From an archaeon (lineage in GTDB: Archaea; Iainarchaeota; Iainarchaeia; Iainarchaeales; 1-14-0-10-31-34), in NCBI GenBank assembly GCA_024277355.1, contig JAJRVL010000002.1:30001-62000 (forward strand): 32,000 nt of DNA, in the 5' to 3' direction. Positions 7,112 through 23,750 of this stretch are shown piece after piece; position 1 is the first letter of the stretch, and every line of letters begins with the position of its first letter. The notes below the pieces were generated by a model. It was not told the DNA's origin. It saw nothing but the letters and a program-made list of their open reading frames with translations, and made no database searches. The translations under genes and the position numbers were made by a program.

Positions 7112-9706
7112 TTATTTTTTAAAAAAACTTGCTTTAAATCTTTTCATAAGTAATGAGTTTGTTACAACTGAAACTGAACTAAAAGCCATTGCAGTTCCTG
7201 CAATAACAGGGCTTAATAAAATTCCTGTAAAAGGAAATAAAATTCCTGCTGCAATCGGAATTCCAATTACATTATAAGCAAAAGCCCAGAAAAAATTCTG
7301 TTTTATTTTGTTCATTGCATATTTGCTTAATTCAATTGCAGTAACTACATCTCTTAAATCATTTTTAACTAAAATTACATCTCCTGTTTCAATTGCAATA
7401 TCTGTTCCTGAACCAATTGCAATTCCAATGTCTGCCTGAGCCAAAGCAGGAGCATCATTTATTCCGTCTCCTACCATTGCAACTTTAAGGTTTTCTTTTT
7501 GTAATTCTTTTACTTTTTCTGCTTTTTCTTCAGGCAGAACTTCAGCAAAAACTCTTTCAATTCCAATTTGGTCTGCTATGGCTCTTGCAGTTCTTTCATT
7601 GTCTCCTGAAATCATTATTGTGTCAAGGTTCATTTTATTAAGAATTTTTATTGCTTCAAAAGAATTTTCTTTTAATGTATCGGCTACAGCAATAATTCCT
7701 GCAGGAGTATTGTTAACTGAAATTACAACAGCAGTTTTTCCTTGTTTTTCAAGTTTTTGCAGGGAACTTTCAATAAACTCAGTTTTAATTTTATTTTCTT
7801 CCATTAATTTTCTGTTTCCAAGCAGAATATTTTTTTTATTGTAAACTGCCTGAATTCCTTTTCCGCTGATGGAATTAAAGTTTTCTGGTTCCTTTAAAAT
7901 AATTTTTTGTTCTTTTGATTTTTTGACTATTGCTTCTCCTAAAGGGTGTTCTGATTTATTTTCTATTGCTGCTGCAATTTCTAATACTTCTTTTTCTTTA
8001 AATCCATTTAAAGAAATAATATTTGTTACTTCAGGTTTTCCTTTAGTTAAAGTTCCTGTTTTATCAAAAACAATTGTGTTAAGTTCTCCTGTTTTCTGCA
8101 ATGCTTCAGCATTTTTAATTAATATTCCGTGTTCTGCGCCTAAACCTGTTCCAACCATTACTGCAGTAGGAGTAGCCAAGCCAATTGCACAAGGACATGC
8201 AATAATCATTACACTAATAAAAATAGTTAAAGCAAAAAGAAATGCCTGTCCTCCAATAAAAAACCAGAATAAAGCAGAAACAACCGCAATAATCATTACT
8301 GCAGGAACAAAAACAGAAGCAATTTTGTCTCCTAATTCTTGTATTGGAGCTTTGCTTCCTTGTGCGTCTTCAACAAATTTAATTATTTGTGCTAAAGCAG
8401 TTTCTTCTCCAATCTTTTCTGTTTTAAATTTAAAGCTTCCTGTCTTATTTATTGTTGCTCCAATTACTGTGTCATTAATGTTTTTTTCTACTGGAATACT
8501 TTCGCCTGTAACCATGCTTTCATCAATACTTGAATGACCTGAAATTACTTTGCCGTCAACAGGAATTTTCATTCCGGGTTTAACAATAACAATATCTCCA
8601 ACTAAAACTTCTTCTATTGGAATTTCAATTTCTTTTCCGTTTCTTTCAATTAAAGCAGTTTTTGCCTGCAAGCCCATTAATTTTTTTATTGCTTCAGAAG
8701 TTTTTCCTTTAGCTAATGATTCAAAATATTTTCCTAATAAAATAAATGCAATTAAGAACGCTGCAACTTCAAAATACAAATCTTTTGAACTAAACAAAGA
8801 AGAACCAGTTAAAATTGCAATAACTGCAATTAAACTGTAAACATAAGCAGAACCAACTCCAATTGCCACAAGAGAATCCATATTAGGGTTTTTGTTTAAA
8901 ATTAATGCTTTAAAACCAGAAGTAAAAAATCTTCTTCCAATCCACATCACAGGAGTAGCAAGCAAAAACTGAATTATAGCTTCATTTTGCATAATAAATT
9001 CGGGGACAGGTAATGGGAAAAAATTTGAAAACATTAAATACATTAAAGGAAGTGATAAACCAATTGCACTAAGAAATTTATTTTTATATGATTCAATTTC
9101 TTTTTGTCTTGCTTCTTTTTCTATGTCAGATGTTTCTGTTTTTTCTGCTTTATAGCCTGCGTTATCTATTGCTTTAATTAAATCACTTGTTTTTACTTTA
9201 TCTGAATCAAAAAAAACTGTTGCTTTTTGTGTTGTTAAGTTAGTCTGATAACTTTTCACTCCGTCAATTTTTTCTAAAGTGCTTTCAATTATTCCAATGC
9301 AATGCTGTGATTCCATTCCATGAACTTTTAATATAACTTTATTTTTTCCTTTTTCAGGTTCTTTTTTGATTACTCCATAACCTGCTTTTTTTATTGCTTT
9401 TTCAAATAAACCTGAATTGGCTTTATTTTTATCAAAAACAATTGTTGCTTTTTCTGTTGCATAATTAACATTAGCAGATTTAACTCCTTCAACTTTATTT
9501 AATGCTTTTTCTATTGTTAAAGCACAGGAAGCACAATGCATATCTTTAATCAAAATGCTTTGTTTTGAATCAGAAATTAAAGGGTGTTTGTGTTCTTTAG
9601 TTTTTTCTTCCCCTAAAAACTTTTCATAACAATTCTTTGAACAAAAAAAGTATTCTTTTCCGTTCTTAACTGTCTTAAATTTAGCTTTTTCTTTTTCTAT
9701 TTCCAT
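7112..9706 (-). CDS. copA: Copper-translocating P1B-type ATPase (YHS-like N-terminus + 2 HMA domains)
   Basis: 864 aa with TGES, the CPC motif ([11 protein letters not shown]), DKTGT, SEHPLG and [13 protein letters not shown]1 has MHCASC. HMA2 is degenerate (GMESQHC, a single Cys). The N-terminus [15 protein letters not shown] is the C-terminal half of a YHS/TRASH motif. The first half (DPSCG) lies upstream of the ATG (see findings), so the true start is uncertain. Confidence 0.95.
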
Positions 9707-9729
9707 TCCGCAGGAAGGGTCTTTAACTT

Positions 9730-10116
9730 TTATTTTACCACCATGTCAACAACTTTTTTTAATTTTGCTTCAACTTCAATTCCAATTTCTTCTAATTCCT
9801 TGTTTCCAATTAAATCCATCATAATAGAAGGAAGAATCGCTGAAATAAAAACTTTTCCTTTGTCTTTAAAAATAATTACATTGCAAGGCAAAAACAAACC
9901 AATTTCTTTTTCTGCTTTTAATGTCTTAAATGCAAAAGAAGGATTGCATGCTCCAAGAATTTTATATTCATTAAATTCTTCATTTAATTTTTCTTTTAAG
10001 GTTTTTTTAACATCAATTTCAGTTAAAACTCCAAAACCTTCTTTTTTCAGTTCTTCAAAAGCTTTATTATAAGCTTCCTGAAAACTTCCATTAAATTCTT
10101 TTTTATATCCATACAT
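9730..10116 (-). CDS. DUF302 domain protein
   Basis: 128 aa. The pattern [37 protein letters not shown] matches DUF302 as I remember it. It sits immediately upstream of copA in the same orientation. Confidence 0.8.
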
Positions 10117-10162
10117 TAAAACACCTCTAATAATTAAAAAGAAAAAAACTAAAAATAGTTTA

Positions 10163-10181
10163 AAGGGCTAAAAAAGCCCTT
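10163..10181 (-). terminator. GC-rich stem-loop AAGGGCT-N5-AGCCCTT
   Basis: A 7-bp perfect stem stands out in AT-rich DNA. On the minus-strand RNA it lies 7 nt after the mini-ORF stop and upstream of DUF302-copA, and is followed by T-runs. Confidence 0.4.
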
Positions 10182-10188
10182 ATTTAAT

Positions 10189-10212
10189 TTAACAACAACC
10201 TGGTCCTCTCAT
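10189..10212 (-). CDS. Candidate 7-codon mini-ORF encoding MRGPGCC
   Basis: ATG AGA GGA CCA GGT TGT TGT TAA is preceded by GGAGGTG with a 5-nt spacer, the same SD geometry as neighbouring genes. It is far too short to assess by coding statistics. Confidence 0.2.
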   Translation of the reverse strand: MRGPGCC

Positions 10213-10281
10213 TCTTTCACCTCCTAAACTTAGGCTTGCCTAATATATTGTGAATCATAATCTTATTAAAACTTATTGTGT

Positions 10282-10527
10282 TTAAGCAAATTTATTGTAA
10301 GCCAATGCTATTGCATATCCAAAAACAAAACCAATTATTCCTGCTTCAATTATTCCAAGAATTATTCCTGTTGGGGTCAAAGAAAAAAACATGTGTCCTT
10401 CCTGCATCATGTTCGCCATTCCGGAATAAATTCCAAAATTTCCAAAAACTCCCATTAAAAGCATTGCTAAAGCAGAAACAATTCCTCCTGCATAACCTAG
10501 TGCAAGTTCATTTAATTTTTCACTCAT
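10282..10527 (-). CDS. Small two-TM membrane protein (81 aa from the SD-preceded ATG)
   Basis: The track ORF 10282..10569 has an internal ATG at 10527 preceded by AGGAGGG. The sequence MSEKLNELALGYAGGIVSALAMLLMGVFG..GIIGFVFGYAIALAYNKFA has two hydrophobic helices. Confidence 0.6.
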   Translation of the reverse strand: MSEKLNELALGYAGGIVSALAMLLMGVFGNFGIYSGMANMMQEGHMFFSLTPTGIILGIIEAGIIGFVFGYAIALAYNKFA

Positions 10528-10562
10528 TTTTTCCCTCCTTTTTACTAATCCTATTAGGTAAC

Positions 10563-10579
10563 ATATCATAATATGATAT
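10563..10579. promoter_or_regulatory. 17-bp perfect palindrome ATATCATA-A-TATGATAT in a divergent promoter region
   Basis: It lies between the small membrane protein gene (-) and the PadR::TRASH regulator gene (+), just upstream of a TTTTTAAAT TATA-like box (10585-10593). It is a candidate operator. Confidence 0.35.
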
Positions 10580-10614
10580 ATCAGTTTTTAAATCTTTTGC
10601 TTTAGCCTTTAATT

Positions 10615-11049
10615 ATGGCTAAAATAAAAGTAGATAATTTAGCAAAGTTTTATGCGATTATTTTGTTATTTGAAGGTCCAAAACATGGCTATGATTTAAT
10701 TAAAATAGTTGGAGAAAAACTTAACAGAAAAATTTCTGCAGGACAGATTTATCCTTTTCTTGCGAAACTTCAGAAAGAAAATTACATAAAAATTAAATCT
10801 GAAGGGAAAAGAGAAAAAAAAATTTATAGATTAACTCCTTTAGGAAAAAGATTCTGTGAATCAATGCTCCATAGGTTTGCTGATTTAATTGAATTAGCTA
10901 TTGAACCAAATCTTTCAAAATGTGCCAGCTGCGGCTGTGAAATATATAAAGGAAGTTATAAAGAAAAAATTAAAGGAAAACTAACTACTTTTTGCTGTTC
11001 TCATTGCGCTGCATCATTTAAAAACTGCTCTAAAACAAAAACACATTAG
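10615..11049 (+). CDS. PadR-like winged-helix regulator fused to a C-terminal TRASH-type Cys domain
   Basis: 144 aa. The PadR pattern is LLFEGPKHGYDLIK..SAGQIYPFLAKLQKENYI..KKIYRLTPLGKRF. The C-terminus is CASCGCEI..(19 aa)..FCCSHCAASF, i.e. CxxC...CxxxC as in TRASH/YHS metal-binding modules. Confidence 0.8.
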   Translation: MAKIKVDNLAKFYAIILLFEGPKHGYDLIKIVGEKLNRKISAGQIYPFLAKLQKENYIKIKSEGKREKKIYRLTPLGKRFCESMLHRFADLIELAIEPNLSKCASCGCEIYKGSYKEKIKGKLTTFCCSHCAASFKNCSKTKTH

Positions 11050-16959: not shown

Positions 16960-18174
16960 CTAAAAAGCAAACAAAAACAGTATTCCTGCAAGTATCAGCA
17001 ATACAATTCCCATTAATAATTTCATGTTTCTTTTGTTTTGTTTTTCCCAGTTAGTGATTTTTTCTGTCATTTTTTTGTTGCCTGCAACTAATAAAATTAT
17101 TATTAACGGAACAACAAACATTATATTGTAAATTGTAAGGAAAACCATTCCTTGCATAAATGTTGTTTGAATTGCAAGCAATGAAAGTATTCCTACATAA
17201 ACTCCTCCGCTGCATGGAAAAGTGCATAATCCAACCAAAAAGCCAAGTATTGCAACAGAAACAAGAGTTAAGTTTGTCATTCTCTTTTTTATCATTGGAG
17301 AAGCAAAAGAAGGCATTTTTAAGCTAAACCATTTGCCGTAAAAAAAGTAATCTTTAAAGTTAATTAAAGCCAAAAACAGCATTAAAAACACACTGATTTT
17401 TCCAAATAAATGCGGAATTCCTGTAATTAATATTGCCTGAAGTAAACCTAATCCAATCAAAAAATAAGCAACAAAAATTGCTGCAATAAATACTCCTCCA
17501 ACTTTCCAGACTTCTGTTTTTGTGCGGTTAATCGAATAAAGAAATGCAATGAAAAATAATAATACTCCGAAAGCACAGGGATTAATTCCATCTAATAATC
17601 CTGTAATTAAAACCAAAGGTAAAAGCTGAATGAAATCCAAATTATTATTTTTTAATTCTTTTGGGGTTGTCAGTGAATTCTTGTTTTTATTAAACCAGTT
17701 TAAATAAACTGAAATTGGTTTATTAATTTTGTATTCTTTTATTTCTCCTTTAAATGCCCAGACTTTATAGTTTTTTGCGTTTTCCATTTCGTCTTGAAAC
17801 ACAACAATTTTTTCAATGCTTTTATCAATTAAAATATCTTTGATTATTTGTTCAGGGACATGCCCTTCAAGAATTATTTTGTTGTCAATAAAAATAGTAA
17901 AATGACCTTGTAATTGAGATGGAATACTTAATTTTTTGCTTAATTCATTTAATTCAATTCTATTTTCTTTTTCACTTATAAAATCTTTTTTTTCAACTTT
18001 AATGCTGTATGATTCAAGCAATGGTTCAATGTTGTCTTCTATATACATTGTACAGCCGTGGCATGCTTTATTATAGTAAATTACTGCGTTTTTGTATTCT
18101 GTTGCAAAAGAAAACGCAGGAACTAACAGTAAAAATAATAATAATACAATAATTTTTTTTGTCATTTTTTTCAT
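16960..18174 (-). CDS. Fusion of a secreted CopG/DUF411-like domain with a CcdA/DsbD-type transmembrane thiol-disulfide transfer domain
   Basis: 404 aa. After the signal peptide comes VIYYNKACHGCTMYIED..IPSQLQGHFTIFIDNKIILEGHVPEQIIKDIL; the EGHVP block and an early Cys motif are as I recall for DUF411. The 6-TM half has GINPCAFGVLLFF and LCTFPCSGGVYVG, one Cys in each half as in CcdA. Confidence 0.75.
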   Translation of the reverse strand: MKKMTKKIIVLLLFLLLVPAFSFATEYKNAVIYYNKACHGCTMYIEDNIEPLLESYSIKVEKKDFISEKENRIELNELSKKLSIPSQLQGHFTIFIDNKIILEGHVPEQIIKDILIDKSIEKIVVFQDEMENAKNYKVWAFKGEIKEYKINKPISVYLNWFNKNKNSLTTPKELKNNNLDFIQLLPLVLITGLLDGINPCAFGVLLFFIAFLYSINRTKTEVWKVGGVFIAAIFVAYFLIGLGLLQAILITGIPHLFGKISVFLMLFLALINFKDYFFYGKWFSLKMPSFASPMIKKRMTNLTLVSVAILGFLVGLCTFPCSGGVYVGILSLLAIQTTFMQGMVFLTIYNIMFVVPLIIILLVAGNKKMTEKITNWEKQNKRNMKLLMGIVLLILAGILFLFAF

Positions 18175-18590
18175 CTCACAATATTTGCTTTTAATTCTAT
18201 TTCTATTTCAGGTTTTTCAATATCATTGCTTTTTACATAAACAATTCTTTCTATTTTTCCTTCAATACCTTTTTCCATTAAATTCGGGTCAATTGTTACA
18301 AGAAGTTTTGCTGTTTCTCCTGAATTAATTAATTTTTTGTCAATTGTTCCTTTTGTGCATCCGCAGGAAGTGCTTATTCCTGTTATTTCAAGAATTCCTG
18401 TTCCCTTATTTTTAACAAAAAAAACATATTCTATTTTTTCGTAAGGAACATTTCCAAAATCATAAAATTCAGGGGTAATTTCTATTTTTGGTTTATTGTT
18501 TTCTAAACTTTGATTTTCAGGAATTGAAATACACCCTGAAAAAATAATCAATGTTATAATCCCTATTCCTAAAAGAAATTTTTTTTTCAT
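18171..18590 (-). CDS. DUF1573-like lipoprotein (SCGCT motif)
   Basis: 139 aa. The signal peptide ends in FSGC. YDFGNVPYEKIEYVFFVKNKGTGILEITGISTSCGCTKG matches the DUF1573 pattern. A 4-nt ATGA overlap links it to the next gene. Confidence 0.75.
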   Translation of the reverse strand: MKKKFLLGIGIITLIIFSGCISIPENQSLENNKPKIEITPEFYDFGNVPYEKIEYVFFVKNKGTGILEITGISTSCGCTKGTIDKKLINSGETAKLLVTIDPNLMEKGIEGKIERIVYVKSNDIEKPEIEIELKANIVR

Positions 18591-18593
18591 TTT

Positions 18594-19187
18594 TTATGCC
18601 ACCTGGTTGACATTTATTTTTACTTTTTTTTCTGAATTTAAGGGATCGTCTGAATAAATTGAAACTATCCTTGTTACTGGCCCTCTTAAATCAGGGTGTG
18701 CAGTAGGATCATAAAAAATCTTTAATTGTGCTTCTTCTCCTGGTTCTAATATTTGTTTATAGCCGGGATTATTATGCATGCCAAATACAGGGCTTTGAAT
18801 TCCATTTATTATTATAACAGCGGTAGTGCACATACAAGAAGACTTTAATCCGTTTAATACTAGTTTTCCTTTTCCTTTATTTATTATTTCCATTGAAGTG
18901 CTTACTGTTCCTTTTCTAATGCTGACTGTTCCAAAATCATGAACTTCAGAACTAATTGTTATTAAGCCTGAACCTCTTGGATCAGGAGAATTATCAATTA
19001 TTCCCTGAATTAAAAACAAAGCAATTAATCCTAAAACTAAAACACCTATTCCAATTTTAATTATTTTTTTTCCTGTTTTTCTTCTGCTTAAATTTTTTTC
19101 TTCTTTATCTGTTTTTTCCTGTCTTAATTTTTTTTTAAGTTCTTTTTTTTCTCTTTTGCTTAATCCTTCAAAATCAGGTCTATTCAT
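18594..19187 (-). CDS. DUF1573-like protein, CMCT variant with a Met/His insertion
   Basis: 197 aa with a Lys-rich head, a TM segment and HDFGTVSIRKGTVSTSMEIINKGKGKLVLNGLKSSCMCTTAVIIINGIQSPVFGMHNNPGY. It is a paralog of 19188..20003. Confidence 0.65.
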   Translation of the reverse strand: MNRPDFEGLSKREKKELKKKLRQEKTDKEEKNLSRRKTGKKIIKIGIGVLVLGLIALFLIQGIIDNSPDPRGSGLITISSEVHDFGTVSIRKGTVSTSMEIINKGKGKLVLNGLKSSCMCTTAVIIINGIQSPVFGMHNNPGYKQILEPGEEAQLKIFYDPTAHPDLRGPVTRIVSIYSDDPLNSEKKVKINVNQVA

Positions 19188-20003
19188 TTATTCCACCTGA
19201 TCAATGTCAATTCTTACTTTTTTTTCAAAATCAACTGAGTCATTTGAAAAAACACTAATAACTCTGACTAAATGTTGTCCTTCAAGTCCTGAATGAACTG
19301 TTGGATCGTAATAAATTTTTAATTGAGCCTGTTGTTTTGGAGGAATAGTTACTGACCATCCTTTTGGATTGCCGTGCATGCTCATTCCAAATATTGGACC
19401 TTCTACTCCATTAAAAATTATTGAAGCAGTAGTGCACATACAGGAAGAATCCATATTATTTATTACTAAATCGCTTTCTCCGTCATTTCTTATTGTCATA
19501 ATTTTGCTTACTGTTCCTTTTCTAACGCTTACTTCTCCAAAATCATATGAATCCGGAGTAATAATTATTTTAGGCCTGTTTTCAGGGGCTCTTTCGGCCA
19601 ATTCAAGTCTTATTTCTTCTTCTAATTTTTTTCCTTCATCTGAAAGAGATTCCATTCCGTATTTTTTTACCATTTTAATTATTGCATCTGTTTTAGAAAT
19701 TTCTGTTTTCTCTAAAGAATCAATATACTCTAGTCTTTCTTTGGCTGAACCGCAGCAAATATTTTCTTTATCTAAAGGCCTGTTGCAGCATGAACAAATA
19801 AATAATCCATAAACTTCGTCTGCTTTAAATGGTTCTGCTAAAATTATTTTTCCTGTAACAGGCGGCATAGTTTTCTCAGAATTTAATGCAACTGGAGTCT
19901 GGGTTATAAATGAATTTGCTAAAAAAATTAAAGAAATAACAATTAAAGCCATTGCTGTAAAATACAATTGATTTTTTTTACTTTTTATTTTTTCTTTATC
20001 CAT
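19188..20003 (-). CDS. Cys-cluster N-domain + DUF1573-like CMCT-variant domain
   Basis: 271 aa with a TM anchor, FICSCCNRPLDKENICCGSAKE, then YDFGEVSVRKGTVSKIMTIRNDGESDLVINNMDSSCMCTTASIIFNGVEGPIFGMSMHGNP. Confidence 0.65.
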   Translation of the reverse strand: MDKEKIKSKKNQLYFTAMALIVISLIFLANSFITQTPVALNSEKTMPPVTGKIILAEPFKADEVYGLFICSCCNRPLDKENICCGSAKERLEYIDSLEKTEISKTDAIIKMVKKYGMESLSDEGKKLEEEIRLELAERAPENRPKIIITPDSYDFGEVSVRKGTVSKIMTIRNDGESDLVINNMDSSCMCTTASIIFNGVEGPIFGMSMHGNPKGWSVTIPPKQQAQLKIYYDPTVHSGLEGQHLVRVISVFSNDSVDFEKKVRIDIDQVE

Positions 20004-20028
20004 TTTTTCACTTTCTTAAAAAGAGGGG

Positions 20029-20050
20029 GAGAAAGCCTTACGGCCTTCTC
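20029..20050 (-). terminator. GC-rich stem-loop GAGAAAGCC-ttac-GGCCTTCTC (one mismatch)
   Basis: 8 of 9 stem positions pair. It lies between the Met/His-rich protein gene and the DUF1573 operon start, so it is a candidate terminator or processing site. Confidence 0.35.
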
Positions 20051-20088
20051 TTGGTTTTAACGCATTATTTAATGCATTAACATTTTTT

Positions 20089-20439
20089 TTAGATGTATTT
20101 TCCTGACATCATAGGGCAGTGTTCTGTCATTTCCTCAAAGTTTCCTGATTCCATTGCCTTTTGCATTTCTTTAAAATCTTCTGAATCCATTGTTTCATGC
20201 ATTTCGTTTATTTCTTCTTTCCAGTTTTCCCCAAGCATTTGTTCGTGAAATTCCTCAAAGTTTCCTTTGTGCATTGTTTTATGCATTTTCTTCATGCCGA
20301 AAAAAGTTTCTTCTGGATTTTCAGTGTTTGAGTTATTTTCAGTATAATTTCCTTCTGAATGTGCTGTAACAGAAACAGAAATAATTCCAAGCAATGCAAC
20401 TACAAAAAGAGAAATTACTGCTGTTTTAAACAAATCCAT
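20089..20439 (-). CDS. Secreted Met/His/Glu-rich repeat protein (putative Cu-binding)
   Basis: 116 aa. After the signal peptide comes FFGMKKMHKTMHKGNFEEFHEQM..EMHETMDSEDFKEMQKAMESGNFEEMTEHCPMM. The GNFEE/DFKEM units repeat. SD is AGGAGATGG. Confidence 0.65.
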   Translation of the reverse strand: MDLFKTAVISLFVVALLGIISVSVTAHSEGNYTENNSNTENPEETFFGMKKMHKTMHKGNFEEFHEQMLGENWKEEINEMHETMDSEDFKEMQKAMESGNFEEMTEHCPMMSGKYI

Positions 20440-20458
20440 TTAACCATCTCCTAAAAGC

Positions 20459-20475
20459 TTTACATTTAATGTAAA
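20459..20475. promoter_or_regulatory. Operator-like palindrome TTTACATT-T-AATGTAAA (box 1)
   Basis: A perfect 17-bp palindrome sits between a TATA-like ATTTAAAAA (20484-20492, minus strand) and the SD of the Met/His-rich protein gene. With flanks, GCTTTACATTTAATGTAAATC is 18/21 identical to box 2. Confidence 0.5.
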
Positions 20476-20496
20476 TCAATCTGTTTTTAAATCTTT

Positions 20497-21213
20497 CTAG
20501 AGTTTTTCTCTTGCCTTGTCTAAAATTAGTGTTTCTTTTCCCATTTTTTTATCTAATTTTCTTTCTTCTAAAATGTCTAATTCTTCAAAATGAATTGGAA
20601 GAAGGCCAAAAGTTCCTGCCTTGACCGAAGAAAAAAATCTTTTAATATTGAAAAAAGAGCCTTTTAAATGCATTAATTCGTGCTTTATTACTGTTCTTAA
20701 TTCATTGTCTTCAAGCAGTTCAATTAATCCTGTTGAAATAAAAATTACTTTTTTGTATCCTGAAACGACAAAAGCATTTGGTTCTGAATTCACAAAAACA
20801 ATTATTTCGGGTTTTGTTATTGAAAGGTTTGCTGCTTCTTCTAAAGCAATTTTTTCTACTTTTTTGTCTTTTGTTTTTGTTATTCCTATTTTCATAAGCA
20901 AAGGAGAAAAAACATATGAGACAATAAAAAATAAGCCTGCAGCAATTAATGCTGTCTGGTGTGCTAAATGAAAAATTGTTGAATAATGTGAATTAGCAAA
21001 AGCAAGAATTAAAAGAAAAGTTATTATTGAAGTTGAAAGAATTGCTTTTGTAAAAAGACTTTGTTTTATTGAAAGTTTTTTTCTAAGTAAAATAAGAATT
21101 AAAATTGAAACAAGGATAAGGGTTATTAAAAAATAGTTAAAAGATGCGAGAAAAGGACTTTGCCCCGCAATACATTCGGTAGCGCATTGTAGTGTTGAAA
21201 CTCCTTCGCCCAT
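20497..21213 (-). CDS. BlaR1/MecR1-like (M56/M48-type) membrane zinc metalloprotease lacking a C-terminal sensor domain
   Basis: 238 aa with three TM segments, then EPNAFVVSGYKKVIFISTGLIELLEDNELRTVIKHELMHL (HExxH). The N-terminal extracytoplasmic end carries CATEC. It is directly downstream of the BlaI-like gene (10-nt gap). Confidence 0.7.
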   Translation of the reverse strand: MGEGVSTLQCATECIAGQSPFLASFNYFLITLILVSILILILLRKKLSIKQSLFTKAILSTSIITFLLILAFANSHYSTIFHLAHQTALIAAGLFFIVSYVFSPLLMKIGITKTKDKKVEKIALEEAANLSITKPEIIVFVNSEPNAFVVSGYKKVIFISTGLIELLEDNELRTVIKHELMHLKGSFFNIKRFFSSVKAGTFGLLPIHFEELDILEERKLDKKMGKETLILDKAREKL

Positions 21214-21223
21214 TTAAAACCTC

Positions 21224-21586
21224 TTATTTAAGTTGTTTTCTCAAATAAGCTACAGAAGAACTTCCAAAAGTATTTTTCAGAAAAGAAAGGAATTTGTCAG
21301 AAATTTCCTCGCTTAATTCTTCTCTGCTGTATTTAGGAGAATAAATGTAAATTAAGCCGCCTTTTCCTTTGAGTATTTTTCTTGTAAGTATTCCTTTTGA
21401 GTGCATTCTGTCTGTTGTAACTGTTATAGTAGTATAAGCAACGTCATTCTTTTTTTTCACTAAATCAAATATTTCTCTGCAGGTGGCTTTTTCTTTTTTC
21501 CATAATGAATCCATTATGTCTGATTCAAGTTTTCCAACTAAAGAATTTAGTCCTTTTTTTTCAAAGTCAATTTTATTTAAATCCAT
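21224..21586 (-). CDS. BlaI/MecI/CopY-family winged-helix repressor
   Basis: 120 aa. LGKLESDIMDSLWKKEKATCREIFDLV..VAYTTITVTTDRMHSKGILTRK..YIYSPK follows the penicillinase-repressor pattern. It has no C-terminal CxCxxxxCxC copper hook. Confidence 0.8.
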   Translation of the reverse strand: MDLNKIDFEKKGLNSLVGKLESDIMDSLWKKEKATCREIFDLVKKKNDVAYTTITVTTDRMHSKGILTRKILKGKGGLIYIYSPKYSREELSEEISDKFLSFLKNTFGSSSVAYLRKQLK

Positions 21587-21633
21587 TGTTTCACTTATTT
21601 ATCTTTTGCAAAATATGTTTATAAATGTATTGC

Positions 21634-21650
21634 TTTACATCTTTTGTAAA
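21634..21650. promoter_or_regulatory. Operator-like inverted repeat TTTACA-N5-TGTAAA (box 2)
   Basis: It lies in the divergent region between the blaI-like gene and 21675..22328, directly after the palindromic TATA box TTTATAAA (21618-21625) and before the SD GGAGGT (21661). An additional ATGTA-N6-TACAT repeat overlaps it at 21625-21640. Confidence 0.5.
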
Positions 21651-21674
21651 TCTTTTACTTGGAGGTATGATTAA

Positions 21675-22328
21675 ATGAATAATACAAAGTTTTTTCTTGT
21701 ATTGCTTGTTGCTTTAACAGCATTAACTCAGATTTATAATCTTTCACTTGAAAATTCAATTTCTTCTGATTTAATAAGTAATGTTGTTTTATCTTCTAAT
21801 GCGGATTCAGCTAACACAGTGACAGCAAATTTATCTAACAGCAATACACAGGAAAAAAAAACGCTTTCTCTTTCTGATATAATTCCTTCCGGGGTTCCTG
21901 AAATTTATGGAACAGAATTAGGAATAAGCTATGATGAACCTGTTGCAGGTTTAGCTGTATTAAAAAAACTTGATACTGCAATTTCTCTTGAAGGAAACTT
22001 ACAGGAAAGATATATTAAAGTAGGAACAAGCATTTCATGCGAATTTTGCTGCGGAGCAAAATCAATTACTTTTTCTGATGGAAGAGCAGCTTGTGGTTGT
22101 GCTCATTCTTATGCAATGAGAGGTTTAGCAAAATATTTGCTTCAAAATCACGCAGACAAATTTACTGATCAGGAAATTTTAAATGAATTAGTTAAATGGA
22201 AAACTTTGTTTTTTCCAAAACAAATGACTAAAAGAGCATTAGAATTAGCTGCACAAGAAGGAACTTATAATCAGGAACTTTTGAATAAAGTTAATTCAAG
22301 TGTTCCAGACATGGTAGGAGGTTGTTAA
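21675..22328 (+). CDS. Secreted Cys-cluster protein ending in PDMVGGC
   Basis: 217 aa with an N-terminal signal/anchor, SCEFCCGAKSITFSDGRAACGCAHSYAMRGL and the C-terminus SSVPDMVGGC followed by the stop. Confidence 0.65.
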   Translation: MNNTKFFLVLLVALTALTQIYNLSLENSISSDLISNVVLSSNADSANTVTANLSNSNTQEKKTLSLSDIIPSGVPEIYGTELGISYDEPVAGLAVLKKLDTAISLEGNLQERYIKVGTSISCEFCCGAKSITFSDGRAACGCAHSYAMRGLAKYLLQNHADKFTDQEILNELVKWKTLFFPKQMTKRALELAAQEGTYNQELLNKVNSSVPDMVGGC

Positions 22329-22329
22329 A

Positions 22330-22575
22330 ATGGATTTAAATAAAATTAGTTTTGATTCACTGCTTTTAGTTTTTGTAGCAGTATTGTTTATTGTTTCTGC
22401 AGTTTCAGCAGTGCAATTAAATGAATTACAGGGAAAAATTGTTTCTTTCAAAGAAACAAGCAGTTCAGTAGTTTCTCTGAGTTCTGATTCATCTTCTAAT
22501 ATTTCTTCATCTTCAAGTGACGAAGAAATTTTAGCAAAACTGAATCAAGCTCCAGATATGGTTGGAGGCTGTTAA
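22330..22575 (+). CDS. Small anchored Ser-rich protein ending in PDMVGGC
   Basis: 81 aa with a TM segment (LLLVFVAVLFIVSAVSAV), a Ser-rich linker and the C-terminus NQAPDMVGGC followed by the stop. It starts 1 nt after the previous stop. Confidence 0.6.
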   Translation: MDLNKISFDSLLLVFVAVLFIVSAVSAVQLNELQGKIVSFKETSSSVVSLSSDSSSNISSSSSDEEILAKLNQAPDMVGGC

Positions 22576-22604: not shown

Positions 22605-23750
22605 TTGAATAAGAGTTTTTTTATGTCTTCAAAAAAAATGTTTCTTCCAAAAAAACCAATGATTTTAGCGGTTATTGCTCTTTTAGCTTTAATTATTTTT
22701 TCTGCTTTTTTTAGTATTCAGTCAATGAATAATGAATTAACTGAAAAAGAAAACAATTCTTTGGAAGAAAATTCTTTAAAAGACAATAATGAAATTAATA
22801 ATGCACTTCCTTTTGTTAAAATACTTTTAGTTAAAAATAACTGTGAAGACTGCTTTGATATTGATTTAATGGCGCAGCAAATTTATTCTTTTGATATCAA
22901 TGTTTTGTAAGTAAAAACAATTAATGCTGATTCAGAAGAAGGAATAAATTTAATTAAAATGCATGATTTGAATACTTTGCCCGCAATTATTATTAATGGT
23001 GAATTCAAAGGAACTGACTTAGAAACCCAATGGAAAACAATTGGTGAAGAAAAAAACGGAGTATTAATTGCAAGCAGGCCTCCTTATTATTCTTTAGAAG
23101 AAAAAAGAGTTAAAGGAAAAGTTGATTTATTATTAATAAAAAATTCTTCTTGTAAAGACTGCATTGACCTGAATTTTTTTGCTGACGACTTAAGAGAATT
23201 AGGCATTATAATTGAAAATGAAAGAACAATTGAATTTGATTCAGAAGAAGGACAATCTCAGATTGAATTTTATTTTATTGACAGAGTTCCTGTGGTTCTT
23301 TTAACCAGTGAAATTGGAGAGTATTCTTTTTTGAAACCTTTATGGAGCCAGATAGGAATAATTGCTCCTGATGGAAGTTATATTTACACTGAAGCTGTTC
23401 CTTTTTTTGATTTATTTTCAGAAGAAACTAAAGGGTTAGTTGAAGTAACAAGATTAATTGATGCAAATTGTTCTGATTGTGTTGATGTAAATGCAATTGT
23501 TTCTCCTTTAACTAAAATGGGCTTAAAAATAATCAAAGAAGAAACCTTTGATGTTTCATCTGAAAAAGGAAAAGAATTAATTGAAAAATATTCTATTACT
23601 AAAATTCCCACAATAATTGTTTCAGAGGAAGCTGAAGAATACACTGAATTTTTTGTTGTCTGGCCTAAAGTAGGAACAAAAGAAGAAGATGGATTTTTTG
23701 TTTTCAGAAATCTTGAAGTTTTAGGAAGCAATTTTATTACTTTAAAGTAA
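22605..23750 (+). pseudogene. Membrane-anchored protein with three thioredoxin-like CxDC repeats, interrupted by one in-frame TAA (22908-22910)
   Basis: Track ORFs 22605..22910 and 22959..23750 are in the same frame, separated only by a TAA. The repeats (~105 aa each) carry NCEDC, SCKDC and NCSDC plus a cis-Pro-like (L/V/I)P(A/V/T)(I/V) element. The stop falls inside repeat 1 (INVL*VKTINADSEEG, compare IIIENERTIEFDSEEG and LKIIKEETFDVSSEKG). The likely real start is the ATG at 22623. Confidence 0.65.

What the first reader, a model, noticed from the sequence alone, without database searches (positions are those of the whole stretch)
20459..21674. BlaI/CopY-BlaR1-like proteolytic switch in an archaeon, with a 21-bp TACA/TGTA box present twice at promoter-proximal positions
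A BlaI/MecI/CopY-type repressor gene (21224..21586) is followed 10 nt later by an M56/M48-type membrane protease gene (HELMH). That protease lacks the penicillin-binding sensor domain and instead exposes an N-terminal CATEC pair. GCTTTACATTTAATGTAAATC (20457-20477) and GCTTTACATCTTTTGTAAATC (21632-21652) are 18/21 identical, and both contain TTTACA-N5-TGTAAA. Each box sits between a TATA-like element and the SD of a target gene: the Met/His-rich protein gene on the minus strand and the PDMVGGC/Trx operon on the plus strand. Operators of this repressor family are known to be TACA..TGTA inverted repeats (the cop box is TACAnnTGTA). Here the half-site spacing is 5 rather than 2. This suggests a sensor-protease/repressor module re-purposed for copper or redox stress.
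Basis: partly seen in the sequence, partly recalled or inferred. Interest (0 to 1): 0.75.

Follow-up and report, generated by a model that had tools for sequence, protein, structure and literature searches.

The report
Archaeal repressor-protease switch with conserved operator
A small DPANN archaeon carries a DNA-binding repressor next to a membrane protease, related to the bacterial penicillin-sensing BlaI/BlaR1 pair, and the repressor's 21-bp binding site is conserved in front of the same target genes in more than 20 related archaeal loci, so this is most likely an untested archaeal switch for sensing copper or thiol stress outside the cell.

Summary
An exact TTTACA-N5-TGTAAA is expected 0.01 times in the window and occurs twice.

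Comparative data make it much stronger. In more than 20 loci from DPANN archaea (protease 30-78% identical; one distant locus of unassigned taxon) the repressor and protease genes are always adjacent. Perfect boxes (consensus AAwGC-TTTACA-N5-TGTAAA-GCwTT, spacer free) lie in a fixed promoter layout: TATA, 8 nt, box, 17-22 nt with a Shine-Dalgarno (SD) ribosome-binding site, ATG.

The protease has three transmembrane helices and the N-terminus outside. The HExxH/ExxxD domain is cytoplasmic. C10, C14 and H85 are invariant and extracytoplasmic.

Targets are secreted Met/His-rich and Cys-rich proteins and a thioredoxin-like protein, inside a copper-ATPase/Dsb island.

Best reading: a BlaIR-type proteolytic switch that senses extracytoplasmic Cu(I) or thiol stress.

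The concept is not new. Cyanobacterial PetR/PetP is a copper-responsive, sensor-less BlaIR pair, and most bacterial BlaR homologues lack the penicillin-binding domain. It is a new archaeal variant of a known kind. Cleavage and the signal are inferred, not shown.

The parts
21224..21586 (-). BlaI/MecI/CopY-family winged-helix repressor gene (120 aa). It has a conserved N-terminal extension, KI(D/N)FxKKGLNS, and a short C-terminal domain ending TFGxSSVAYLRKxLK. Its only Cys is C36.
   Evidence: Pfam PF03965 at 56.3 bits. Best PDB sequence matches are M. tuberculosis BlaI 2G9W at E=2.8e-6, then S. aureus BlaI and MecI.
20497..21213 (-). Three-TM membrane zinc metalloprotease gene (238 aa), M48/M56 type. 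Invariant residues are the extracytoplasmic C10-x3-C14-x2-GQ, H85 at the outer end of TM3 (adjoining the TM2-TM3 loop), and the catalytic H178ExxH182 and E217xxxD221. It has no fourth TM helix and no sensor domain.
   Evidence: Pfam and NCBIfam scans. Alignments A3 and A4. Hydropathy and K/R distribution. AF2 model at pLDDT 72.5 with three long N-terminal helices followed by an alpha/beta protease domain. Fold matches to HtpX, ZMPSTE24, selecase and BlaR1.
21632..21652 (.). Operator box 2 (GCTTTACA-TCTTT-TGTAAATC), in the divergent promoter region between the repressor operon and the CEFCCG/MVGGC operon.
   Evidence: Exact match. A box is conserved at the homologous position in every related locus whose held sequence covers that region (L004 and L009 are cut off upstream of the repressor gene).
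20457..20477 (.). Operator box 1 (on the minus strand GATTTACA-TTAAA-TGTAAAGC), in the promoter of the Met/His-rich protein gene, just downstream of the protease stop codon.
   Evidence: Exact match. Conserved position in close relatives. In distant relatives the second box precedes a different small exported or membrane protein gene.
21618..21625 (+). TATA-like element TTTATAAA, 6 nt upstream of the 21-bp box 2 (8 nt upstream of the TTTACA core). It is palindromic and might also serve the repressor operon (ATG 31 nt away on the other strand).
   Evidence: Invariant in alignment A1. Coordinates. Same TATA-8 nt-TTTACA layout in all loci.
20484..20491 (-). TATA-like element TTTAAAAA (minus strand), 8 nt upstream of the TTTACA core of box 1.
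21661..21666 (+). Shine-Dalgarno GGAGGT of the CEFCCG/MVGGC gene.
   Evidence: CCTCC is invariant in A1.
20444..20451 (-). Shine-Dalgarno-like GGAGATGG of the Met/His-rich protein gene.
20089..20439 (-). Target gene 1: secreted or membrane-anchored Met/His-rich protein (116 aa). It carries MHKTMHK and EMHETM repeats and the conserved EHCPMM motif. It is a probable Cu(I)/Ag(I) binder.
   Evidence: Translations of the window protein and its orthologues. No Pfam family.
20020..20088 (-). Two stable hairpins followed by CCCCCTCTTTTT downstream of target gene 1. This looks like a terminator and implies a monocistronic transcript.
   Evidence: RNA fold -23.3 kcal/mol, z = -7.06.
21675..22328 (+). 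Target gene 2: membrane-anchored extracytoplasmic Cys-rich protein (217 aa) with an invariant C-E-x-C-C-G...C-G-C-A-H core and the C-terminal MVGGC.
   Evidence: Alignments A6 and A7. At least 934 DPANN homologues, none annotated. AF2 pLDDT 87.8 with no PDB fold match.
22330..22575 (+). Small membrane-anchored protein (81 aa) that also ends in PDMVGGC, in the same operon.
22623..23750 (+). Membrane-anchored thioredoxin-like protein with three CxxC motifs (CEDC, CKDC, CSDC). In this window it is interrupted by an in-frame TAA at 22908-22910.
   Evidence: relatives have Q or E at that codon. Thioredoxin-like hits.

Best explanation
This is an archaeal BlaI/BlaR1-type transmembrane proteolytic switch with a two-promoter regulon.

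Proposed mechanism:
1. The 120-aa winged-helix repressor binds, presumably as a dimer, to the palindrome AAwGC-TTTACA-N5-TGTAAA-GCwTT.
2. The palindrome starts 8 nt downstream of the TATA box and covers the predicted transcription start. TBP/TFB could still bind, but RNA polymerase recruitment would be blocked.
3. One operator controls the divergent operon: the CEFCCG/MVGGC Cys-rich exported protein, a small MVGGC protein and a 3xCxxC thioredoxin-like protein. The other controls a secreted Met/His-rich metal-binding protein.
4. The co-transcribed protease has three TM helices with the N-terminus outside and the HExxH/ExxxD domain in the cytoplasm.
5. Its only extracytoplasmic parts are a short N-terminal helix carrying the invariant C10-x3-C14 and the short TM2-TM3 loop, next to which the invariant H85 opens TM3.
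6. I propose that a thiophilic metal, most likely Cu(I), bridges these residues. Alternatively the Cys pair is oxidised. Either event would move TM3, which leads straight into the protease domain, and switch it on.
7. The activated protease would cleave or degrade the repressor and de-repress both promoters.
8. Cytoplasmic copper would be handled separately by the PadR/TRASH-like regulator next to DUF302-copA in the same island.

Shown here: homology, gene linkage, conserved residues, topology prediction, operator conservation and operator placement. Inferred: DNA binding, repression, cleavage of the repressor, and the nature of the signal.
For: Operator:
- Two exact boxes against 0.01 expected.
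- Exact boxes lie at the homologous promoter positions in L001-L018, L053, L085, L110, L112 and L125. They also occur in distant pairs: L141 (repressor 34% identical), L131 (29%) and the Nanoarchaeota locus L144 (35%).
- Among 33 unique sites there are 24 different spacers. The flanks, which were not used to select the sites, are G at 63/66, C at 58/66 and AA at 57/66 and 52/66.
- The TATA-8 nt-box-17 to 22 nt-ATG layout is constant.

Repressor:
- PF03965 at 56.3 bits.
- Best solved relatives are BlaI and MecI.

Protease:
- Adjacent to the repressor gene in all loci.
- HExxH and ExxxD, the BlaR1 active-site motifs (bioRxiv 10.64898/2026.08.03.742534), are invariant, as are C10, C14 and H85.
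- K/R counts are 0 in the N-terminus, 4 in loop 1, 0 in loop 2 and 6 after TM3.
- More distant archaeal relatives keep an N-terminal Cys pair (35 of 81 short representatives) and/or a Cys pair in the TM2-TM3 loop.

Copper context:
- The Met/His-rich target carries an EHCPMM motif.
- The window also holds CopA with YHS and HMA domains, DUF302, a cupredoxin, DsbA-like, DsbD-like and rhodanese genes.
- CopA homologues lie within the held flanks of about 10 of 23 system loci. L004 has Csp and YHS genes. L141 has ArsR and CopA genes.

Precedent: PetP, a sensor-less M48/M56 protease, degrades the BlaI-like PetR in response to copper, with ligands proposed in the TM2-TM3 loop (bioRxiv 10.1101/2020.07.31.226407).
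Against: - There are no experimental data for any member of this archaeal clade.
- The window protease is below the Pfam M56 gathering score (18 against 31) and did not match BlaR1 by sequence in the PDB. The fold match to BlaR1 is weak: E=0.028 with a large rmsd.
- The repressor lacks the last ~20 residues of BlaI/MecI. At the position aligned with their N101-F102 scissile bond it has Y-L. A BlaI-like cleavage site is therefore not established.
- CxxxC is not the commonest Cu(I) motif.
- The regulon (Trx-like and Cys-rich proteins) fits thiol or disulfide stress equally well.
- In L131 the target is a MacB/FtsX permease, so the signal may differ between clades.
- copA itself carries no box in the window.
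- Only 32 kb of this genome could be scanned.
Confidence: 0.55

Rival explanations
1. The architecture is the same proteolytic switch, but the signal is extracytoplasmic thiol-disulfide (oxidative) stress and not a metal. The exposed C10/C14 pair forms or loses a disulfide, and this activates the protease.
For: The regulon and neighbourhood are dominated by thiol-redox functions. These are a 3xCxxC Trx-like protein, Cys-rich exported proteins ending in Cys, DsbD-like, DsbA-like and rhodanese. The CEYCCG and Trx-like genes are the partners most constantly linked to the pair, more so than CopA. Relatives carry variable Cys pairs (CxxC, CxxxC, CxxxxC), which is typical of redox switches.
Against: The second box drives a Met/His-rich protein typical of Cu/Ag binding, not of redox repair. 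Copper genes lie near about half of the system loci. From my own knowledge, copper stress itself causes disulfide mis-pairing, and bacterial copper-tolerance loci such as Scs encode Dsb/Trx-like proteins, so redox genes do not exclude copper. The invariant H85 beside the Cys pair suggests a metal site.
Confidence: 0.25
2. The protease is not the sensor. It is a housekeeping or quality-control membrane protease of HtpX type that merely shares an operon. The repressor senses the signal itself, for example through its single Cys36, or is released by another factor.
For: The strongest profile hits of the protease are M48/HtpX-type. The repressor has a conserved Cys (T/S-C-R) in the DPANN clade.
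Against: HtpX equivalog scores are about ten times below their cut-offs. The gene is always immediately downstream of a BlaI-family gene, as for the 96% of bacterial M56 proteins that lie near a BlaI gene (PMC13492132). The repressor Cys is absent from L131 and L141, which use the same operator. The invariant extracytoplasmic Cys/His residues have no role in a plain quality-control protease.
Confidence: 0.1
3. The boxes are not protein-binding sites. They are RNA hairpins, terminators or chance palindromes in AT-rich intergenic DNA.
For: The window is 28.7% G+C. Box 1 lies just after the protease stop codon, where a terminator could sit. An exact 21-mer search of metagenomes returns many unrelated hits: 113 of the first 120 have no BlaI-like gene nearby.
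Against: The hairpins are very weak, -3.1 and -3.2 kcal/mol. Box 2 lies in a divergent promoter where no transcript ends. The stems are invariant in sequence across proteins only 29-78% identical and show no compensatory changes, while the loop is free. That is the signature of sequence-specific protein recognition. Expected exact matches are 0.01 per window. The distance to the TATA element is constant.
Confidence: 0.02

Closest known systems
PetR/PetP of Synechocystis sp. PCC 6803 (Garcia-Canas et al. 2021; bioRxiv 10.1101/2020.07.31.226407; commentary PMC7896320)
   Same: A BlaI/CopY-family regulator and a downstream, co-transcribed M48/M56 membrane protease without a penicillin-binding domain. 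Copper triggers protease-dependent loss of the regulator. The regulon is very small. The operator is an inverted repeat. The proposed metal ligands lie in short extracytoplasmic segments next to TM2/TM3.
   Different: PetR/PetP is bacterial (sigma-70 promoters), whereas this pair is archaeal (TATA/TFB promoter, operator over the start site). PetP has four TM helices and two conserved Met in the TM2-TM3 loop. The archaeal protease has three TM helices, an N-terminal CxxxC and His85. The PetR site is GAC-N5-GTC (GACA-N3-TGTC), and here it is TTTACA-N5-TGTAAA. PetR also activates. The PetRP targets are plastocyanin and cytochrome c6, not metal or thiol defence proteins.
BlaI/BlaR1 and MecI/MecR1 of Staphylococcus aureus and Bacillus licheniformis (BlaR1 cryo-EM structure PMC9834060; 8EXP-8EXT)
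   Same: The repressor belongs to the same Pfam family, and BlaI and MecI are among its best solved relatives. TACA/TGTA half-sites. The gene order is repressor then protease, in one operon. N-terminal TM helices are followed by a cytoplasmic HExxH/ExxxD domain.
   Different: There is no TM4 and no extracellular transpeptidase-like sensor. The protease is 238 aa against about 585. The half-site spacer is 5 and not 2. The repressor lacks the last helix and has Y-L where BlaI has the N101-F102 scissile bond. The signal cannot be a beta-lactam.
CopY/CopR copper repressors of Enterococcus, Lactococcus and Streptococcus (cop box TACANNTGTA, refined to RNYKACANNTGTMRNY; PMC7253601)
   Same: The same winged-helix family, ACA/TGT half-site cores and a link to copper homeostasis genes.
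   Different: CopY senses Cu(I)/Zn(II) directly through C-terminal CxC motifs and needs no protease. The archaeal repressor has no such motif. It scores 32 bits against the CopY_TcrY cut-off of 122. The spacer is 5 and not 2.
Atypical, sensor-less BlaIR systems of bacteria: M. tuberculosis Rv1846c/Rv1845c, C. difficile CenIR (PMC13492132), P. aeruginosa PvmSR (bioRxiv 10.64898/2026.08.03.742534)
   Same: BlaI-like and M56-like pairs without a beta-lactam-binding domain. They are the majority class: only ~6% of M56 proteins carry the transpeptidase domain. Their signals are mostly unknown.
   Different: These are bacterial proteins, which usually have a fourth TM helix and variable C-terminal tails. 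None is reported with an N-terminal extracytoplasmic Cys pair or with this operator. The archaeal proteins fall under the M48 rather than the M56 Pfam threshold, so M56-based surveys would miss them.
Minigluzincins (selecase and projannalysin of Methanocaldococcus jannaschii, 4QHF/4JIX) and the HtpX catalytic domain (3CQB)
   Same: These are the best sequence and fold matches for the catalytic core: E=1.7e-5 by sequence and Foldseek E=4.6e-3 to 3e-2. They share the HExxH plus glutamate-helix gluzincin scaffold.
   Different: They are soluble minimal proteases or housekeeping HtpX. They have no linked repressor, no three-TM sensor-like N-terminal part and no conserved extracytoplasmic Cys.

Membership tests
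BlaI/MecI/CopY repressor family (Pfam PF03965 Penicillinase_R) | Winged-helix DNA-binding domain scoring above the family's gathering threshold | tested here: met
   56.3 bits against a cut-off of 22.6, E=5e-15. The distant partners L131 (35.9 bits) and L141 (54 bits) also pass.
BlaI/MecI/CopY repressor family (Pfam PF03965 Penicillinase_R) | Operator built from a TACA/TGTA inverted repeat | tested here: met
   TTTACA-N5-TGTAAA at both promoters, conserved in more than 20 loci. The spacing is 5 where BlaI, MecI and CopY have 2 (PMC7253601). Binding itself was not tested.
BlaI/MecI subgroup (protease-inactivated repressors) | C-terminal dimerisation domain containing the N101-F102 scissile bond | tested here: inconclusive
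   In alignment A5 the equivalent residues are Y114-L115 (window), Y-F (L141) and N-F (L131). The archaeal proteins end about 5 residues later and lack the last BlaI helix.
CopY/TcrY subgroup (direct metal sensors) | C-terminal CxC...CxC Cu/Zn-binding motif; NCBIfam TIGR02698 equivalog score | tested here: not met
   The protein has a single Cys (C36) and none in the C-terminus. It scores 32.4 bits against a cut-off of 121.95.
BlaR1/MecR1 family (peptidase M56) | M56 profile above the gathering threshold | tested here: not met
   The window protein scores 18 bits against 31, while M48 scores 42.5 against 20.3. The relative P0035 passes M56 at 38.3 bits and others reach 23-30 bits. NCBIfam blaR1_generic gives 15 bits against 400.
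BlaR1/MecR1 family (peptidase M56) | HExxH and ExxxD zinc-site motifs in a cytoplasmic domain that follows N-terminal TM helices | tested here: met
   H178ELMH182 and E217RKLD221 are invariant. Three hydrophobic helices, with a K/R distribution placing the domain inside.
BlaR1/MecR1 family (peptidase M56) | Gene adjacent to and co-oriented with a BlaI-family repressor gene | tested here: met
   All related loci show this. The gap is 10 nt in the window.
BlaR1/MecR1 family (peptidase M56) | Fourth TM helix and an extracellular penicillin-binding (transpeptidase-like) sensor domain | tested here: not met
   The protein ends 56 residues after HELMH with no further hydrophobic helix or domain.
BlaR1/MecR1 family (peptidase M56) | Signal-dependent cleavage of the cognate repressor | not testable with these tools
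   This needs biochemistry or genetics.
PetR/PetP-type copper switch | Copper-dependent, protease-dependent degradation of the regulator | not testable with these tools
   Only context is available: a Met/His-rich target and CopA, Csp, YHS, DUF302 and cupredoxin genes nearby.
PetR/PetP-type copper switch | Four-TM protease with two conserved Met in the TM2-TM3 loop; GAC-N5-GTC operator | tested here: not met
   Three TM helices. The loop reads NSHYS with no Met, and the conserved residues are C10, C14 and H85. The operator is TTTACA-N5-TGTAAA.
HtpX (M48B housekeeping protease) | Score at HtpX equivalog level; gene not linked to a regulator | tested here: not met
   Best HtpX model 36.5 bits against cut-offs of 245-422. 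The gene is always linked to a BlaI-like gene.

The most novel reading that the evidence does not exclude
The pair is one member of a large, uncharacterised, mainly archaeal family. The family occurs in DPANN phyla, and Bathyarchaeota/Thermoproteota relatives of the protease exist. Each member is a minimal transmembrane signalling device. A three-TM M48/M56 protease would read the extracytoplasmic metal or thiol state directly through Cys pairs in its N-terminus and/or its TM2-TM3 loop. It would pass the signal on by destroying a BlaI-like repressor that blocks RNA-polymerase recruitment at a TATA-proximal operator. That operator, TTTACA-N5-TGTAAA, has stayed the same across repressors only ~30% identical. 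This would be the first defined pathway of regulated proteolysis controlling transcription across the membrane in Archaea. It would be a main envelope-stress sensor in genome-reduced DPANN cells, which I expect, without having checked, to have few two-component systems. Its core target, the CEYCCG/MVGGC protein family (at least 934 members, no known fold), would be a new extracytoplasmic metal/thiol-handling protein.
Probability: 0.4. Interest if true: 0.7.

Novelty: new variant of a known kind. Interest (0 to 1): 0.55.

Why it matters
Signal transduction across the membrane is poorly understood in Archaea, and least of all in the uncultivated, genome-reduced DPANN lineages. No characterised archaeal BlaI/BlaR1-type system turned up in the literature I could search.

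This locus offers a compact, fully specified hypothesis:
- a regulator;
- an exact operator with its promoter geometry;
- a two-promoter regulon;
- a candidate sensing site of three residues;
- a plausible ligand.

All of it can be tested with recombinant proteins and a heterologous host, without cultivating the organism.

It also shows that the copper-responsive PetRP logic of cyanobacteria may have a counterpart in another domain of life with a different basal transcription machinery.

Finally, it points to a large DPANN-wide family of Cys-rich exported proteins ending in MVGGC as the main regulated output.

Tried and rejected
1. Exact look-ups of the window's own repressor and protease in the contig index found nothing. 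I could not reach the rest of the 104-kb source contig, so no whole-genome box scan was possible.
2. Word-index homology searches returned only 8-9 close relatives. The wider family came from the profile search of the representative library and from DNA pattern scans.
A3 worked.
Of these, 113 are chance matches with no BlaI-like gene. This gives no genome-wide frequency, but it did yield seven more system loci, two of them distant.
6. The Cys-rich target protein gave a confident model but no PDB fold match and no Pfam or NCBIfam family. Its function stays unknown.
7. Rfam found no known RNA in the window.
8. Literature searches for archaeal BlaI/BlaR1 systems returned nothing specific. One paper only notes an annotated BlaI/MecI/CopY gene in Haloferax (PMC9240420).
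9. I rejected a CopY-type direct metal sensor, an HtpX housekeeping protease and an RNA hairpin or terminator. The reasons are in the membership tests and the rival explanations.
Full report
**Observation.** The sequence is as described. GCTTTACATTTAATGTAAATC lies at 20457-20477 and GCTTTACATCTTTTGTAAATC at 21632-21652. They are 18/21 identical and each contains TTTACA-N5-TGTAAA. The exact pattern occurs twice in the 32-kb window, against a mean of 0.01 in dinucleotide-preserving shuffles. Allowing one mismatch adds nothing. ORF 21224-21586(-) is a Penicillinase_R/BlaI-family protein (56.3 bits, cut-off 22.6). Ten nucleotides downstream, ORF 20497-21213(-) is a 238-aa protein with HELMH. It passes the Peptidase_M48 threshold (42.5 bits) and scores 18 bits on M56, below that threshold. 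It has no penicillin-binding domain and begins MGEGVSTLQCATEC.

**Organism and neighbourhood.** The window is 28.7% G+C. It encodes archaeal markers: PcrB/GGGP synthase and an RPA-type protein. The nearest named homologues are MAGs of Ca. Diapherotrites/Iainarchaeum and Micrarchaeota, which are DPANN archaea. The pair sits in a roughly 15-kb island of envelope metal and thiol genes:
- three DUF1573 proteins;
- a DsbD-like membrane protein;
- rhodanese;
- a NicO-like half-protein;
- a cupredoxin;
- a DsbA-like protein;
- a PadR regulator with a TRASH-like tail, divergent from DUF302 and a YHS-HMA-HMA P-type ATPase (CopA).

**The operator is real.** I retrieved related loci in three ways: exact protein look-up (L001-L007), a scan of one genome per species (L008-L018) and a metagenome scan with the 21-mer.
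- In every locus that encodes a relative of the pair (protease 30-78% identical), the repressor and protease genes are adjacent. Exact TTTACA-N5-TGTAAA boxes occur only at promoter-proximal intergenic sites.
- One box always lies between the repressor gene and a divergent gene for a Cys-rich exported protein. The second precedes a small exported or membrane protein gene.
- Searches allowing one or two mismatches found no degenerate versions at these positions, so the invariance is not an artefact of the search.
- Among 33 unique sites there are 24 different spacers. The flanks, which were not used for selection, are strongly conserved (G 63/66, C 58/66, AA 57/66 and 52/66). They extend the motif to AAwGC-TTTACA-N5-TGTAAA-GCwTT.
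- The same half-sites are used by much more distant pairs: L141 (repressor 34% identical, two boxes, next to ArsR and CopA genes), L131 (29%, 45% G+C, two boxes, divergent MacB/FtsX permease) and a Nanoarchaeota locus, L144 (three boxes).
- Folded as RNA the boxes are worth only about -3 kcal/mol. Invariant stems with free loops are the opposite of covariation. A protein-binding site is therefore the only reasonable reading.

**Promoter geometry.** In all loci the layout is an 8-nt TATA-like element, 8 nt, TTTACA-N5-TGTAAA, then 17-22 nt containing a Shine-Dalgarno sequence, then ATG. In the window:
- plus strand: TTTATAAA 21618-21625, box 2, GGAGGT 21661-21666, ATG 21675;
- minus strand: TTTAAAAA 20484-20491, box 1, GGAGATGG 20444-20451, ATG 20439.

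From general knowledge, archaeal transcription starts about 25 nt downstream of the TATA centre. That puts the start inside the right half-site. Archaeal repressors that block RNA polymerase recruitment, rather than TBP/TFB binding, sit at this position. In distant relatives the divergent box has exactly the same flanks as the second box when read towards the Cys-rich protein gene. Autoregulation of the repressor operon through the palindromic TATA element is possible but not shown. In L141, L131 and L144 a box lies directly upstream of the repressor gene.

**Repressor.** Its best solved relatives are M. tuberculosis BlaI (2G9W, E=2.8e-6), then S. aureus BlaI and MecI. It is not a CopY. It has one Cys and no C-terminal CxC motifs, and it scores 32 bits against the CopY_TcrY cut-off of 122. 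Compared with BlaI and MecI it has a conserved N-terminal extension and lacks the last helix. The residues aligned with the N101-F102 scissile bond are Y-L (Y-F in L141, N-F in L131).

**Protease.**
- Alignments show invariant C10, C14, G17, Q18, H85, H178, E179, H182, E217 and D221. At family level C10, C14, HExxH and E217 persist. HExxH plus ExxxD are the BlaR1 active-site motifs (bioRxiv 10.64898/2026.08.03.742534).
- Hydropathy, the AF2 model (pLDDT 72.5) and K/R counts (0 / 4 / 0 / 6) indicate three TM helices. The N-terminus and the TM2-TM3 loop are outside and the catalytic domain is inside.
- By sequence, the catalytic core is closest to the minigluzincin MJ1213 and an HtpX domain. By fold it is closest to HtpX, ZMPSTE24 and selecase, and weakly to BlaR1. 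The family straddles M48 and M56, as PetP does.
- It is not HtpX. Scores are about ten times below the equivalog cut-offs, and linkage to a BlaI-like gene is universal.
- A profile search of 1.84 billion representatives found 8 close clusters and 884 hits at E<=1e-3. Among the 81 short (200-270 aa) proteins in the best 150, 35 carry an N-terminal CxxC, CxxxC or CxxxxC, and several also have a Cys pair in the TM2-TM3 loop.
- The named examples are Ca. Iainarchaeum, with an adjacent BlaI gene, and Bathyarchaeota/Thermoproteota.

**Regulon and signal.**
- Target 1 in the window clade is a signal-anchored Met/His-rich protein with a conserved EHCPMM motif and, in relatives, a MHGMMH tail. This is typical of Cu(I)/Ag(I)-binding proteins.
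- Target 2 is an operon. It encodes a membrane-anchored protein with an invariant C-E-x-C-C-G...C-G-C-A-H core and the C-terminal MVGGC, a small protein with the same C-terminus, and a 3xCxxC thioredoxin-like protein.
- The Cys-rich protein belongs to a DPANN-wide family of at least 934 proteins. It has no Pfam or NCBIfam model and no PDB fold match, despite a confident model.
- CopA homologues lie within the held flanks of about 10 of 23 system loci. The Cys-rich protein gene is present wherever the upstream flank is held, except in L131.
- copA itself has no box. It has its own PadR/TRASH-like regulator. This suggests a division of labour between cytoplasmic and extracytoplasmic sensing.
- The evidence favours copper or another thiophilic metal but does not exclude thiol-oxidative stress.

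**Comparison with known systems.**
- The closest functional precedent is PetR/PetP of Synechocystis. A BlaI-family regulator is degraded, in a copper- and PetP-dependent way, by a sensor-less four-TM M48/M56 protease. Copper ligands are proposed in the TM2-TM3 loop, and the operator is GAC-N5-GTC (bioRxiv 10.1101/2020.07.31.226407; PMC7896320).
- Sensor-less BlaR homologues are the rule in bacteria. Only ~6% of M56 proteins have the transpeptidase domain, and 96% lie near a BlaI-like gene (PMC13492132).
- The canonical TACANNTGTA site of CopY, BlaI and MecI has a 2-nt spacer (PMC7253601).
- The archaeal pair therefore belongs to a known mechanistic class. It differs in domain of life and promoter logic, in having the minimal three-TM architecture, in its candidate sensing residues (N-terminal CxxxC plus His), and in operator sequence and spacing.
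- I found no paper describing an archaeal BlaIR-type system, within the limits of the searchable library.

**Verdict.** My confidence falls step by step:
- the boxes are the repressor's operators: about 0.85;
- the protease inactivates the repressor on a signal: about 0.65;
- the signal is extracytoplasmic Cu(I) or a similar soft metal: about 0.45.

I classify it as a new variant of a known kind, with interest 0.55.

Noticed in passing
window 21675-22328 (+) and 22330-22575 (+): Both proteins end in an invariant MVGGC. The larger one has an invariant C-E-x-C-C-G...C-G-C-A-H-S core. Its family has at least 934 members across DPANN phyla, all annotated as hypothetical, with no Pfam or NCBIfam model. 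A confident AF2 model (pLDDT 87.8) has no PDB fold match. The role of a C-terminal Cys after Gly-Gly on an exported protein is unexplained.
   Followed up: partly
window 22908-22910 (within 22623-23750, +): A single in-frame TAA interrupts the 3xCxxC thioredoxin-like gene. Two relatives have Gln or Glu at this codon, which is one base change away. It could be a nonsense mutation, an assembly error or read-through. I could not decide which.
   Followed up: partly
window 7112-11049: A PadR-family regulator with a Ta0938/TRASH-like C-terminal region (10615-11049, +) lies divergent from DUF5676 (10282-10569), DUF302 (9730-10116) and a YHS-HMA-HMA P-type ATPase (7112-9706) on the minus strand. It is probably a separate, cytoplasmic copper-responsive unit. 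No TTTACA-N5-TGTAAA box is present there.
   Followed up: partly
window 20020-20088 (-): Two very stable hairpins (-23.3 kcal/mol, z = -7) are followed by CCCCCTCTTTTT, directly after the Met/His-rich protein gene. This is a terminator-like element separating that gene from the DUF1573/DsbD-like gene cluster.
   Followed up: partly
L004, L010-L013, L018 (e.g. L011:7800-8285): In the more distant relatives the second box controls a different gene: a ~160-aa four-TM protein with conserved SSWSLCHSICLAL and NPxC motifs and no known family. In L015 and L016 the box precedes small exported proteins (a 79-aa Cys-containing one in L015). In L131 it precedes a MacB/FtsX permease. In L144 a third box precedes a class-V aminotransferase.
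   Followed up: partly
L001:16757-20521: The CopA homologue of a close relative is 1254 aa and carries faint intein-splicing and LAGLIDADG hits. This suggests an intein inside the copper ATPase. The window's copy (864 aa) has none.
   Followed up: no
P0173 (HIH17179.1, Ca. Iainarchaeum): A 379-aa protein sits in the same 90% cluster as a 120-aa BlaI-like and a 258-aa M48 protein. It appears to be the two genes called as one ORF. It could be a gene-call artefact or a real repressor-protease fusion.
   Followed up: no
window 16960-20003 (-): Three consecutive DUF1573 (SCxCT-motif, Ig-like) exported proteins are followed by a 404-aa protein. That protein joins an N-terminal CHGC thioredoxin-like part to a DsbD-type membrane domain. 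The order is conserved in close relatives.
   Followed up: no
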